From a virus (Duplodnaviria; Caudoviricetes), in the IMG/VR virus record IMGVR_UViG_3300037067_018912, positions 256,001-320,000 of that record: a stretch of DNA of 64,000 nucleotides; one strand, written 5' to 3'. Each line of letters begins with the position of its first letter. Within the stretch, counting starts at the first letter, position 1. The position numbers and the translations under genes are program-made. The notes under the pieces were generated by a model. That model searched no databases, was not told the origin of the DNA, and saw nothing but the letters and a program-made list of their open reading frames with translations. Positions 1,755-28,209 of the stretch are shown in pieces.

Positions 1755-2117
1755 GGGGGTGCTTTGGCTTTGACAGCGTGAACGGGATATGACGCAAGCA
1801 AGTGGTAGTTGAATCGGACTACCTTAAAAAGGTTCAAAACAATAGAAGCAGAGGATATAATGTCCATTCCAACTTCCCTCACAAGGGGAAGAAGCGTTTT
1901 CGTTGAGAGTGCTGAACTCATCGCAGCGTAAGGAAGCAACAAACGGCAAAAAACTTCCCAAATCATTCAGGTCTTTTGAAATCTGGTTTTTGGAAGATAC
2001 AGGAAGTAAAATAAAAGAATTGAATCAGATATGTTGACTGTTCTGAAAAACAGTATAAACTTGTAGAAAACGCATTGATCGCATGTTTGGACCGGGGTTC
2101 GACTCCCCGCACCTCCA
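1755..2117 (+). ncRNA. ssrA: tmRNA; predicted tag AEDIMSIPTSLTRGRSVFVESAELIAA* (1848-1931)
   Basis: 5' GGGGGTG pairs with 3' CACCTCC-A with G3:U70; CGGGG-TTCGACT-CCCCG T-arm; internal ORF ends in ...IAA-stop. Confidence 0.93.
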
Positions 2118-2143
2118 CTTAAACAATTGTAAATTAATTATTT

Positions 2144-21329: not shown

Positions 21330-21401
21330 GCCCCTGTAGTTCAATGGACAGAACGGAAGTTTCCTAAACTTTAAATTCGAGTTCGATTCTCGGTGGGGGT
21401 A
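21330..21401 (+). tRNA. tRNA-Arg(CCT)
   Basis: GAAGT-TT CCT AA-ACTTT. Confidence 0.9.
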
Positions 21402-21493
21402 CAAAAACAGACAAATATTATCCGTCAATATGCAAAAACGTATAATAACCGGATAATAAATATCCTTATATGTAAAAGCATATAATAACATTC

Positions 21494-26906: not shown

Positions 26907-26979
26907 GGTTCTGTAACTTAATCGGCTAAAGTAGCAGTCTCTAAAACTGTGTTTGCGGGTTCGAACCCCGCCAGGATCA
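26907..26979 (+). tRNA. amber suppressor tRNA (anticodon CTA)
   Basis: GCAGT-CT CTA AA-ACTGT; GGTTCTG/CAGGATC acceptor; GCGGG-TTCGAAC-CCCGC T arm. Confidence 0.9.
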
Positions 26980-26995
26980 CCTATATATTTTTACA

Positions 26996-27310
26996 ATGAG
27001 TAGAACGAATAAAGACCTAAAAAGTCATAAAACAGGGATTGGCAGATATGGAAGAAAACCTCAAAGAAAACTCACTCCCTTTATTCATGATGCAAATAAA
27101 ATCGTAGGCAAAAATGAAGTTTTATCGTGCTTGCCTGACAACGATATTAAACAAGATGATTTCGAAAAGGGATATCATTGGCACAATGCAAAAGCAGTAC
27201 GTGCGATAAGAAAGAAAATCCGTGCCGAAAGGGGTTATGAAAAATCCAAAGCAAGGGGAAGAATTAAACAATTTGACAAAAAAATTTGTGAAACTCAAAA
27301 ATTTGATTAA
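26996..27310 (+). CDS. basic K/R-rich hypothetical protein
   Basis: MSRTNKD..., 104 aa. Confidence 0.7.
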   Translation: MSRTNKDLKSHKTGIGRYGRKPQRKLTPFIHDANKIVGKNEVLSCLPDNDIKQDDFEKGYHWHNAKAVRAIRKKIRAERGYEKSKARGRIKQFDKKICETQKFD

Positions 27311-27365
27311 TTTTGTTCGCTCAAGTATTTATGTTTTTAAACATTAACAACTAAAATTTTTAATC

Positions 27366-27695
27366 ATGAGGTAGGTAAAATTAATAACAGTAACCCGTAA
27401 GGATTTAAAAGACGGTCAACAACTTGTGCAGACCGGGCATTCCATTGCCGAATTCGCACACAAGCATCCCGATCAATTCTCCGATTGGATGCAAAACTCA
27501 CAATATCTTGTTTCGTTATCGACCGATAACGAAGAGAATCTCACAGAAATGTACAATAAATTAAAGTACTATGGTGCTCATGTCGTTGCGTTCCATGAAC
27601 CCGACATTGGTAATCAAATGACTGCGATCTGTTATTTCGGTACGCCGGAGATGCGTAAATTCACACAGAAACTTGATTTGGCACTTAACTATTAA
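27366..27695 (+). CDS. peptidyl-tRNA hydrolase 2-like protein with in-frame TAG at codon 3
   Basis: ATG AGG TAG then VKLITVTRKDL..GQQLVQTGHSIAEF...FHEPDIGNQMTAI (Pth2-like pattern). Confidence 0.75.
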
Positions 27696-27888
27696 ATTTT
27701 ATGGCCATGAAAGACACATAGTTCTCAAACAGACCACCATAATGATGAAATTCGCAATTTGCGAATCACGAATTGCGAAAAACTTCGTTACGCAAAATTG
27801 CGTAACGCTGTAATGCGTAATCTACGTAACGCAAAATACGTAACAAACAAAATGTAAATTACAAAATGTAACATTAATAAACATCATT

Positions 27889-28209
27889 ATGGAAACAATA
27901 GTTGAAATCAATATCAGCAAGATGAAGGCGGACATCAAGGAAAACGCCGAGAAGCAGAAATTCTACAGAAATCAAAGAAAAACCGAGAAATTGGTTGGCG
28001 AAAGGCAAATGCCTGCATGGGAAGCGACATATTCCCATCAAAAAAACAGAAGGAATTTGCGCATCATGTATGCCGCATACGGATTAGCCAAAGGAAAGAA
28101 TTTCTCTCAAATTGAAAATCATTATCCCGAAGAGAACCACCCGTTGAATGAATTACGGTATGAGATCGACAAGATGATGAATGAATACAAGGCCAAAGAC
28201 GGCGAATAA
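27889..28209 (+). CDS. hypothetical phage protein
   Basis: 106-aa ORF followed by a hairpin. Confidence 0.75.
   Translation: METIVEINISKMKADIKENAEKQKFYRNQRKTEKLVGERQMPAWEATYSHQKNRRNLRIMYAAYGLAKGKNFSQIENHYPEENHPLNELRYEIDKMMNEYKAKDGE

What the first reader, a model, noticed from the sequence alone, without database searches (positions are those of the whole stretch)
26907..27695. Amber suppressor tRNA next to a Pth2-like gene that starts ATG-AGG-TAG
Seen: a CTA-anticodon tRNA, and about 390 nt downstream an ATG in a typical A/T-rich context followed by AGG TAG and then the Pth2-like N-terminal strand KLITVTRKDL in frame. Other genes read normally in code 11, so this is local readthrough. Established: two-codon minigenes (lambda bar) cause peptidyl-tRNA drop-off that Pth must recycle. 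Inference: hydrolase output depends on competition between RF1 and the suppressor, and on tRNA-Arg(CCT), which is also encoded here. That would be another translation-state sensor.
Basis: partly seen in the sequence, partly recalled or inferred. Interest (0 to 1): 0.8.

Follow-up and report, generated by a model that had tools for sequence, protein, structure and literature searches.

The report
Stop-codon-gated phage tRNA-hydrolase gene with suppressor tRNA
A complete 357-kb phage that otherwise uses the normal genetic code keeps a UAG stop as the third codon of a small peptidyl-tRNA-hydrolase-like gene and encodes a UAG-reading tRNA just upstream; dozens of distant phages keep the same pairing, so the enzyme is probably made only when that tRNA overrides the stop.

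Summary
A canonical tRNA with anticodon CUA lies at 26907-26979. An ORF opening ATG-AGG-TAG lies at 27366-27695 and encodes a PTH2-fold protein whose first strand sits between the TAG and the next canonical start.

It is neither an error nor global recoding. The genome is complete and 91% coding in code 11. Nine closer relatives keep ATG-X-TAG or a longer leader ending in TAG.

In 69 non-redundant distant phage loci:
- 53 have ATG, then 0-8 further codons, then TAG (never TAA or TGA), 2-9 codons before strand 1.
- All 53 have a purine after the TAG.
- 47 of the 53 have no canonical start after the TAG.
- 61 carry a same-strand tRNA(CUA), which is the nearest tRNA in 49 of 67 loci.

Best reading (about 0.72): translation starts at the ATG, and full-length protein needs amber suppression by the phage tRNA competing with RF1. 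It works like prfB-type sensing of stop-codon decoding.

The enzyme's role is inferred.

I found no publication describing this. The same scan has already noted the pairing in at least 28 other genomes.

The parts
26907..26979 (+). Phage amber-suppressor tRNA, anticodon CUA. Acceptor pairs are G1-C72, G2-U71, U3-A70; discriminator is A73. The amino acid it carries is unknown.
   Evidence: ARAGORN; Rfam tRNA 61.2 bits, full length; parsed stems.
27353..27365 (+). Start context of the gene: an A-rich tract at -13 to -10 and no Shine-Dalgarno sequence, as for this phage's other genes.
   Evidence: In 242 long ORFs, A reaches 54-58% at -14 to -11 and SD-like words are depleted (7% against a 12% background). 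The context score of ATG 27366 is 3.48 bits, the 44th percentile of true starts and the 98th of random sites. GTG 27426 scores -3.0.
27366..27371 (+). Two-codon leader ATG-AGG (Met-Arg) before the gate.
   Evidence: Sequence. Identical in L008-L011. It is AAG in L104-L106. The ATG lies 1-9 codons upstream of the TAG in the wider family.
27372..27375 (+). In-frame UAG gate at codon 3, plus the following purine (G).
   Evidence: TAG is conserved in nine closer relatives and in 53 of 69 distant loci. It is always TAG, and the +4 base is A in 40 and G in 13.
27366..27695 (+). PTH2-like coding sequence of 109 codons, read with TAG as a sense codon (P0001).
   Evidence: Pfam PTH2 25.5 bits against a cut-off of 23. 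AlphaFold model pLDDT 92. TM 0.79 to archaeal Pth2 2zv3, 3erj and 1wn2, and to human Bit1 1q7s.
27378..27398 (+). First beta strand of the fold (residues 5-11). It lies between the TAG and the first canonical start, GTG 27426.
   Evidence: DSSP on the model gives strand E5-11 and helix H16-33. The code-11 ORF starts at residue 21, so a downstream start would delete strand 1 and part of helix 1.
27597..27626 (+). Family signature E-P-D-I-G-N-Q-M-T-A, the putative active-site loop. It corresponds to the D-A-G-x-T-Q loop of Pth2.
   Evidence: E78, D80, I81, Q84 and T86 are invariant in alignment A2. HMM alignment to PDB Pth2 chains.
26996..27310 (+). A 104-codon ORF inserted between the tRNA and the gene. 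It is variable cargo and not part of the module.
   Evidence: No Pfam, PHROG or NCBIfam match. Homologous only in L107. Absent or replaced in L008, L010, L011 and L104.
21330..21402 (+). tRNA-Arg(CCT), which would decode the AGG at codon 2. It is peripheral to the finding.
   Evidence: ARAGORN. AGG is not conserved outside the closest clade.

Best explanation
This is a suppressor-gated gene. Ribosomes start at ATG 27366, make Met-Arg, and meet UAG at codon 3. If host RF1 wins, only a dipeptide is released and nothing harmful is made. If the phage's own tRNA(CUA), encoded 385 nt upstream on the same strand, decodes the UAG, the ribosome goes on to make a 109-residue PTH2-fold protein. That protein is most likely an esterase acting on peptidyl- or N-blocked aminoacyl-tRNA.

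Output of the protein is therefore tied to how well amber suppression is working in the infected cell. That depends on tRNA processing, charging by a host synthetase, and competition with RF1.

Shown:
- the anatomy of the locus;
- its conservation;
- exclusive use of TAG;
- the purine context after the TAG;
- the specific linkage to the tRNA;
- the fold of the protein.

Inferred:
- that read-through happens;
- which amino acid is inserted;
- that the protein hydrolyses tRNA esters;
- why the two are coupled. My guess is that the enzyme handles by-products of suppression or of RF1 shortfall, such as dropped-off peptidyl-tRNA, alongside the phage tmRNA.
For: 1. The start is ATG 27366.
- Its context is typical of this phage's starts.
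- The phage does not use SD sequences, so the GAGGT in the leader is not a ribosome-binding site.
- The next canonical start removes strand 1 and half of helix 1.

2. The TAG is conserved.
- ATG-AGG-TAG is kept in L008-L011 (77-91% identical proteins) while synonymous changes occur just downstream.
- ATG-AAG-TAG is found in L104-L106. L107 and L108 have a 13-codon leader ending in TAG.
- 53 of 69 non-redundant distant loci have an in-frame TAG 2-9 codons before strand 1, with an ATG 1-9 codons before the TAG. None uses TAA or TGA.
- 47 of the 53 have no canonical start after the TAG.
- The control rate for this pattern is 2.1%.

3. The base after the gating TAG is a purine in 53 of 53 loci. 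After the 27 terminal TAGs of this genome it is T 12, A 7, C 4, G 4.

4. The tRNA link is specific.
- A same-strand tRNA(CUA) is present in 61 of 69 loci.
- It is the only tRNA in 13 of the 14 loci that have a single tRNA.
- It is the nearest tRNA in 33 of 50 loci with three or more tRNAs, where 7.4 would be expected by chance.

5. The suppressor sequences differ widely, even between phages whose hydrolases are 91% identical in the alignment. What is kept is therefore 'an amber suppressor', not one particular tRNA.

6. Gating is old. One well-supported clade of 60 tree rows holds 58 gated members.

7. The genome is complete, uses the standard code, and has no other convincing early-TAG gene.
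Against: - There is no direct evidence of read-through, of charging of the tRNA, or of enzyme activity. Everything is comparative.
- The codon after the TAG is ATT in 25 of 53 loci and AUN in 30 of 53. These are weak non-canonical starts, so termination followed by reinitiation is conceivable in part of the family.
- In Bxz1, Myrna, L107 and L108 a GTG follows the TAG directly. In the mycobacteriophages an SD sits at the right spacing for that GTG, so those lineages may not need suppression.
- The PTH2 match is marginal. It is far below the NCBIfam equivalog cut-off (25 against 82 bits), and the conserved Gly-Lys lysine of Pth2 is Gln18 here.
- Twelve of 16 non-gated loci still have the tRNA next door. 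The partnership is therefore not only about gating, and I cannot explain it.
Confidence: 0.72

Rival explanations
1. Leader mini-ORF with reinitiation. ATG-AGG-TAG is a separate tiny ORF. After termination the ribosome restarts at or near the next codon using a non-canonical start. The suppressor tRNA is linked for another reason and is not needed for expression.
For: The codon after the TAG is ATT, ATA, ATC or ATG in 30 of 53 loci. GTG follows the TAG in Bxz1, Myrna, L107 and L108. Some relatives start directly at M-K-L, so the leader is dispensable for the fold.
Against: - In this window the codons after the TAG are GTA, AAA, TTA and ATA, none of them a usable start. Their context scores are poor, between -0.5 and 0.7 bits.
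- 23 of 53 loci have GTT, GTA, ACN or other codons after the TAG that are not single-base variants of ATG.
- Reinitiation would work with any stop codon. TAA is the commonest stop in these genomes and in control leaders, yet all 53 use TAG.
- This rival does not explain the tRNA(CUA) linkage or the purine at +4.
Confidence: 0.13
2. The two-codon minigene causes fMet-Arg-tRNA drop-off, and hydrolase output reports the peptidyl-tRNA load and the supply of tRNA-Arg(CCT).
For: The window has exactly two sense codons before the stop. The phage encodes tRNA-Arg(CCT). From general knowledge, very short nascent chains are prone to drop-off. M-X-TAG is the modal form, in 26 of 53 loci.
Against: - The ATG lies anywhere from 1 to 9 codons upstream of the TAG, and L107 and L108 have 13-codon leaders.
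- AGG is confined to the closest clade, and X is mostly Lys AAG or AAA, also a common second codon.
- Unlike bar, the stop is in frame with a real gene.
- No route is evident by which accumulated peptidyl-tRNA would raise read-through.
Confidence: 0.08
3. The TAG is a sense codon because the phage is recoded genome-wide or in blocks (code 15), so nothing is special about this gene.
For: TAG is a rare terminator here, ending 27 of 445 ORFs, as in relatives of recoded phages (Borges et al. preprint). A suppressor tRNA is present.
Against: - Code 11 gives 91% coding density, and reading TAG as sense adds 0.6 points.
- ORFs extended through a TAG are almost all trivial, and no PHROG domain clearly spans a TAG.
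- In the related loci, relaxing TAG gains about as much as relaxing TGA, the control.
- The gene family carries one TAG, always at the N-terminus.
Confidence: 0.03
4. Pseudogene, or a sequencing or assembly error.
For: Standard gene callers truncate the gene to 89 residues.
Against: The same TAG appears in independent assemblies from different samples and in cultured phages. The downstream frame is intact and under purifying selection.
Confidence: 0.01

Closest known systems
Stop-codon-recoded phages with phage-encoded suppressor tRNAs (TAG read as Gln, 'code 15'; crAss-like, Lak; Borges et al. bioRxiv 10.1101/2021.08.26.457843; Peters et al. PMC9523058)
   Same: A phage tRNA(CUA) overrides a host stop codon. 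TAG is depleted as a terminator. The idea that suppression controls which phage genes are expressed is shared.
   Different: Here the genome is standard code and only one gene clearly needs the suppressor. The TAG is always at the extreme N-terminus, and the target is a translation-recycling-type enzyme linked in cis to the tRNA. The preprint does not mention Pth or any hydrolase.
prfB (RF2) autoregulation through an early in-frame UGA
   Same: An early in-frame stop codon in a translation-factor gene makes output depend on the competition at that stop codon. This is what the present system works like. The comparison rests on my own knowledge.
   Different: prfB escapes by a +1 frameshift and senses its own product. 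Here escape must be in frame, because a +1 shift at AGG-TAG-G runs straight into TAA. It is mediated by a dedicated tRNA, and the product is not a release factor.
Peptidyl-tRNA hydrolase 2 (Pfam PF01981; PDB 2zv3, 3erj, 1wn2, 1xty, human Bit1 1q7s), noted in jumbo phages by Iyer et al. 2021 (PMC7824862)
   Same: Same fold (TM 0.79). The R-x-D-L strand, the Q-x-x-H-A helix and an invariant acidic loop are conserved. PTH2 is already known to occur in jumbo phages.
   Different: It scores far below the equivalog cut-off. It lacks the conserved Gly-Lys lysine. Its loop is shortened and has its own invariant E-P-D-I-G-N-Q motif. The paper interprets phage PTH2 as ribosome rescue after tRNA cleavage and makes no link to amber codons or suppressors.
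Lambda bar minigenes (AUG-AUA-stop)
   Same: In this window two sense codons are followed by a stop, and there is a thematic link to Pth.
   Different: Bar ORFs are free-standing, use any stop, and act by sequestering tRNA. Here the stop is always UAG and in frame with a gene, and the leader length varies.
Orphan suppressor tRNAs of standard-code jumbo phages (e.g. XacN1, PMC5852040)
   Same: A standard-code jumbo phage with CUA suppressor tRNAs and a PTH2-like gene.
   Different: The XacN1 authors looked for C-terminal extensions and found no target. XacN1's own PTH2-like gene is fused and not gated. The present module gives such tRNAs a concrete N-terminal target in other phages.

Membership tests
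Pth2 (PF01981 / TIGR00283 arch_pth2) | Pfam PTH2 domain above the gathering score | tested here: met
   25.5 bits against a cut-off of 23, residues 5-78. 24.6 bits in the six-frame genome search. The match is marginal.
Pth2 (PF01981 / TIGR00283 arch_pth2) | NCBIfam equivalog score | tested here: not met
   TIGR00283 scores 25.1 bits against a cut-off of 82. NF003314 scores 23.7 against 126.
Pth2 (PF01981 / TIGR00283 arch_pth2) | Pth2 alpha/beta fold | tested here: met
   Model pLDDT 92. Foldseek TM 0.79, probability 1.00, to 2zv3, 3erj, 1wn2 and 1q7s. Profile search against PDB gives 2zv3 at E=2e-9.
Pth2 (PF01981 / TIGR00283 arch_pth2) | Conserved lysine after Gly at the start of helix 1, and an acidic residue in the D-A-G loop | tested here: inconclusive
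   The lysine position is Gln18 here and varies across the family (Q, Y, A or L). An invariant E78 and D80 lie at the loop, but the HMM alignment is ambiguous about which of them matches the Pth2 Asp. The roles of these residues are from memory.
Pth2 (PF01981 / TIGR00283 arch_pth2) | Hydrolysis of peptidyl-tRNA | not testable with these tools
   Needs an enzyme assay or complementation of a pth(ts) strain.
Code-15 recoded phage | Many genes with in-frame TAG and low coding density under code 11 | tested here: not met
   91.4% coding in code 11 against 92.0% with TAG read as sense. No region of the genome shows a TAG-specific gain.
Code-15 recoded phage | Phage-encoded tRNA(CUA), and TAG rare as a terminator | tested here: met
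   tRNA. TAG ends 27 of 445 ORFs.
Lambda bar-type minigene | Free-standing two-codon ORF ending in a stop | tested here: not met
   The stop is in frame with the PTH2 domain. In the family the ATG lies 1-9 codons upstream of the TAG, and L107 and L108 have 13-codon leaders.
Initiator-type tRNA(CUA) (start at UAG) | Three consecutive G-C pairs in the anticodon stem and a 1:72 mismatch | tested here: not met
   The anticodon stem is GCAGU/ACUGU and position 1:72 is G-C. An in-frame ATG precedes the TAG in 53 of 54 loci with an early TAG.

The most novel reading that the evidence does not exclude
The PTH2-like protein and the amber-suppressor tRNA may form a self-checking two-part device that lets a standard-code phage run controlled UAG read-through. 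The hydrolase would be made only in proportion to suppressor activity. It would then either clear the peptidyl-tRNA and stalled-ribosome by-products of suppression or RF1 shortfall, or act on the suppressor's own ester and so form a homeostat. Such a module would be the dedicated natural target of 'orphan' phage suppressors and a plausible evolutionary seed of TAG recoding in phages.
Probability: 0.25. Interest if true: 0.9.

Novelty: new variant of a known kind. Interest (0 to 1): 0.78.

Why it matters
Suppressor tRNAs in standard-code phages have had no known target; the XacN1 authors searched for one and found none. This module supplies a target. It is a single translation-related gene whose expression is wired to stop-codon override, and it is conserved across a family with about 1,750 cluster representatives.

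If the reading is right, it would be:
- a natural amber-codon gene switch, the design synthetic biologists build by hand;
- a possible stepping stone to stop-codon reassignment in phages;
- a reason to correct the annotation of the many genes of this family now called N-terminally truncated.

It is testable in cultured phages. Tenacibaculum phage pT24 has ATG-AAA-TAG. Mycobacteriophages of the Bxz1 and Myrna type have the variant start-TAG-GTG.

Tried and rejected
1. I first read the Q at position 3 of 'full-length' database homologs (M-K-Q-V-K-L) as a sense codon and as a hint that the tRNA inserts Gln. This was wrong. Those proteins were translated with TAG=Q by their source, and the DNA has TAG. 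No amino acid can be inferred.

2. Identity of the suppressor. Its best matches among the phage's 60 tRNAs are Leu(TAA) at 72% and Lys(CTT) at 71%, which is not decisive. Across loci the acceptor stems and discriminators vary widely (A73 in 43, U in 12, G in 12), and a few look Gln-like with U1-A72 and G73.

3. Other amber-dependent genes in this genome.
- Twenty early-TAG candidates look non-coding apart from this gene.
- Of seven mid-gene candidates, only a baseplate-hub-like ORF has a PHROG match that barely crosses a TAG. That case is unresolved.

4. Backup stops after terminal TAGs. There is no enrichment (median 19 codons against 10, p=0.95).

5. Read-through-promoting RNA structure around the TAG. 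None found (z=0.17).

6. Theta or HDV-like ribozyme, or any other Rfam family, near the tRNA. None found.

7. Phage-encoded RF or Pth1. None found.

8. The intervening 104-codon ORF as a third component. It is not conserved.

9. A crude code-11 versus code-15 density test on the related 16-kb loci is confounded by tRNA arrays. The gains from relaxing TAG resemble those from relaxing TGA.

10. An opal-gated gene next to the tRNA(TCA) elsewhere in the genome. None is evident.

11. The careful tree search did not finish in the time allowed, so the quick IQ-TREE result is what I report.

Full report
**Observation**

The window is bases 256001-320000 of a single 357,275-bp virus record with direct terminal repeats, rated 100% complete. 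It carries 60 tRNA genes and a tmRNA.

- A tRNA with anticodon CTA lies at 26907-26979. It matches Rfam tRNA at 61.2 bits, full length, with a canonical cloverleaf.
- 385 nt after the ARAGORN end of the tRNA (26981), on the same strand, the sequence reads ATG (27366) AGG TAG (27372) GTA AAA TTA ATA ACA GTA ACC CGT AAG GAT TTA. It stays open to TAA at 27693-27695.
- Read through the TAG, the 109-residue product (P0001) matches Pfam PTH2 just above the gathering score (25.5 against 23 bits, residues 5-78).
- It folds with pLDDT 92 into the Pth2 alpha/beta fold (TM 0.79 to archaeal Pth2 2zv3, 3erj and 1wn2, and to human Bit1 1q7s).
- The first canonical start after the TAG is GTG 27426, at residue 21. 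Starting there would delete strand 1 (residues 5-11) and part of helix 1.

**Not an error and not global recoding**

- Code 11 gives 91.4% coding density over the whole genome, and reading TAG as sense adds 0.6 points. TAG ends only 27 of 445 ORFs.
- ORFs that lengthen when TAG is read through are almost all trivial extensions.
- Of twenty ORFs with an ATG, a TAG within 10 codons and at least 70 further codons, only this one looks like a gene.
- The phage encodes no release factor, no Pth1, and only this one PTH2.

**Where translation starts**

This phage does not use Shine-Dalgarno sequences. SD-like words upstream of 242 long ORFs are rarer than background (7% against 12%). Its starts are instead preceded by an A-rich tract at -14 to -10.

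ATG 27366 has AAAA at -13 to -10. Its context scores 3.48 bits, the 44th percentile of true starts and the 98th of random positions. GTA 27375, TTA 27381, ATA 27384 and GTG 27426 score 0.7, -0.5, -0.4 and -3.0. The GAGGT inside the leader is therefore not a ribosome-binding site for a hidden downstream start.

A +1 shift at AGG-TAG-G would run straight into TAA. The domain is in frame 0 with the ATG. The tRNA lacks initiator features: it has no run of three G-C pairs in the anticodon stem, and position 1:72 is G-C.

**Conservation in closer relatives**

- Protein searches returned many 89-96-residue homologs that begin at V-Q-T-G-H, the mark of an upstream stop.
- Their DNA (L008-L011, 77-91% identical proteins in the alignment, from independent samples) reads ATG AGG TAG GTA AAA. 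Synonymous and conservative changes occur just downstream: ATA/ATC/GTA, CGT/CGC, AAG/AAA, TTA/CTG.
- Apparently full-length homologs beginning M-K-Q-V-K-L turned out to be TAG=Q translations by the source database. Their DNA reads ATG AAG TAG GTT or ATT. I therefore withdraw my first idea that relatives have Gln there.
- L107 and L108 have a 13-codon leader, conserved at the peptide level (…D-T-G-x-G-S-P-I/M), ending in TAG-GTG.

**Conservation in distant relatives**

A profile scan of viral contigs gave 80 loci, 69 of them non-redundant, mostly from 50-430-kb phages and 32-74% identical.

- In 53 of the 69, an in-frame TAG lies 2-9 codons before strand 1, preceded by an ATG 1-9 codons upstream. 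The commonest distance is 2 codons, that is M-X-TAG, in 26 of 53.
- The stop is never TAA or TGA.
- 47 of the 53 have no canonical start between the TAG and the strand.
- The base after the gating TAG is A in 40 and G in 13, never a pyrimidine. After this genome's 27 terminal TAGs it is T 12, A 7, C 4, G 4.
- From memory, a 3' purine favours amber suppression over RF1 (Bossi 1983; Miller and Albertini 1983; Pedersen and Curran 1991). I did not check those papers here.
- In 1,393 control ORFs from the same loci, the ATG-to-TAG leader pattern occurs in 2.1%. When such a leader exists in controls, its stop is TAG in only 22% of cases.
- On a quick maximum-likelihood tree, one well-supported clade (SH-aLRT 96) of 60 rows contains 58 gated members. 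The non-gated ones mostly form a separate clade. Gating is therefore old and maintained.
- The family is large, with 1,756 50%-identity representatives at E<=1e-10.

**Linkage to the suppressor**

- A tRNA(CUA) lies in 61 of the 69 loci: 49 of 53 gated and 12 of 16 non-gated. All 68 copies are on the gene's strand, at a median distance of about 1 kb.
- It is the only tRNA within 8 kb on either side in 13 of the 14 single-tRNA loci.
- It is the nearest tRNA in 33 of 50 loci with three or more tRNAs, where 7.4 would be expected.
- The suppressors themselves are very diverse in acceptor stem and discriminator. They differ even between phages whose hydrolases are 91% identical in the alignment, for example the window against L008.
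- What is conserved is an amber suppressor next to this gene, not a particular tRNA. This argues that the link runs through decoding of UAG.
- The ORF between the tRNA and the gene in this window (26996-27310) is variable cargo.

**Cultured phages**

- Tenacibaculum phage pT24 has ATG AAA TAG ATA, then 17 more codons without a start before strand 1. Its annotated CDS is N-terminally truncated, and a tRNA-Sup lies 2.6 kb upstream.
- Mycobacteriophages Bxz1 (ATG TAG GTG) and Myrna (GTG TAG GTG) have a tRNA(CUA) 130-300 nt downstream. An SD is well spaced for the GTG, so they may start after the TAG.
- XacN1's PTH2-like gene is fused and not gated.
- Lak-B4's copy is not gated but has a tRNA(UUA) about 700 nt upstream.

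**Interpretation**

The best-supported mechanism is suppressor gating. RF1 termination at codon 3 yields a harmless dipeptide. Decoding by the phage tRNA(CUA) yields the enzyme. Output therefore follows the working level of amber suppression, which depends on tRNA processing, charging and competition with RF1. In logic this resembles prfB, where an early in-frame stop in a translation-factor gene senses decoding at that stop.

The extreme N-terminal position fits a gate whose failure product costs nothing.

Why a PTH2-like enzyme is the target is inference. It may clear peptidyl-tRNA or other by-products of read-through or RF1 shortfall, together with the phage tmRNA (window 1755-2118). Alternatively it may act on the suppressor itself. 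That 12 of 16 non-gated loci keep the tRNA adjacent shows a functional partnership beyond gating.

Caution on the enzyme: it is far below the NCBIfam Pth2 equivalog cut-off. The Gly-Lys lysine of Pth2 is Gln18 here. The loop carries its own invariant E-P-D-I-G-N-Q motif.

The two-codon form and the AGG are features of this clade only. Elsewhere the leader is 1-13 codons long and codon 2 is mostly AAG or AAA. Drop-off sensing remains speculation.

**Literature and earlier notes**

- Iyer et al. 2021 note PTH2 in jumbo phages but make no link to amber codons or suppressors.
- The XacN1 paper could not find targets for its CUA suppressors.
- The Borges et al. preprint on recoding does not mention Pth.
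- Further searches found no description of this gating.
- This scan has already flagged the same pairing in at least 28 other genomes. I reached the core result before reading those notes. I then checked their claim about cultured phages myself.

Noticed in passing
genome 159671-159745 (-), outside the window; L103: ARAGORN calls a second suppressor-type tRNA, anticodon TCA (opal), next to a tRNA-Met(CAT) at 159493-159567. It sits in an intergenic gap of a minus-strand gene block. I saw no TGA-gated gene nearby.
   Followed up: partly
window 27737-27892: The gap between the hydrolase gene and the next ORF is dense in repeats. TCGCAATTTGCGAA and TCACGAATTGCGAA are in tandem. There are two ACGTAACGCAAAAT-like direct repeats 39 nt apart, several imperfect palindromes, and an 11-nt perfect inverted repeat flanking the whole block. 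It looks like an operator or terminator cluster.
   Followed up: partly
L107:3959-4003 and L108:236-280: In two relatives the leader before the TAG is 13 codons long and conserved as a peptide (M-K-N-Y-A-D-T-G-S-G-S-P-I and M-K-K-M-F-S-D-T-G-Y-G-S-P-M). It is followed by TAG-GTG. The conservation suggests the leader is translated and may have a role of its own.
   Followed up: no
L008:3772-3843 against window 26907-26979: The suppressor tRNA differs completely in acceptor and anticodon stems between two phages whose hydrolase genes are 91% identical in the alignment. The suppressor has been replaced or has diverged fast while the module was kept.
   Followed up: partly
genome 192324-193415 (-); L097: A baseplate-hub-like ORF (phrog_150, E=3e-12) ends at a TAG at codon 303. 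Read through, it gains about 60 residues, and the PHROG match just crosses the TAG (to residue 310). This may be a C-terminal read-through extension, or it may be nothing.
   Followed up: partly
genome 250497-250583, 265074-265158, 253714-253788 and others: Several phage tRNAs are unusually long for their class, for example Gln(TTG) at 87 nt and Lys(TTT) at 85 nt. One call has a four-base anticodon (gcgc). Introns, long variable arms or miscalls were not resolved.
   Followed up: no
L114 (Prevotella phage Lak-B4) 3293-3365: In this TAG-recoded megaphage the PTH2-like gene has no early TAG, but a tRNA with anticodon TTA lies about 700 nt upstream. The hydrolase is again next to a stop-codon-reading tRNA.
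   Followed up: no
window 1755-2118: A phage-encoded tmRNA with an unusually long tag (27 residues ending ...A-E-L-I-A-A). It may be relevant if read-through creates non-stop complexes.
   Followed up: no
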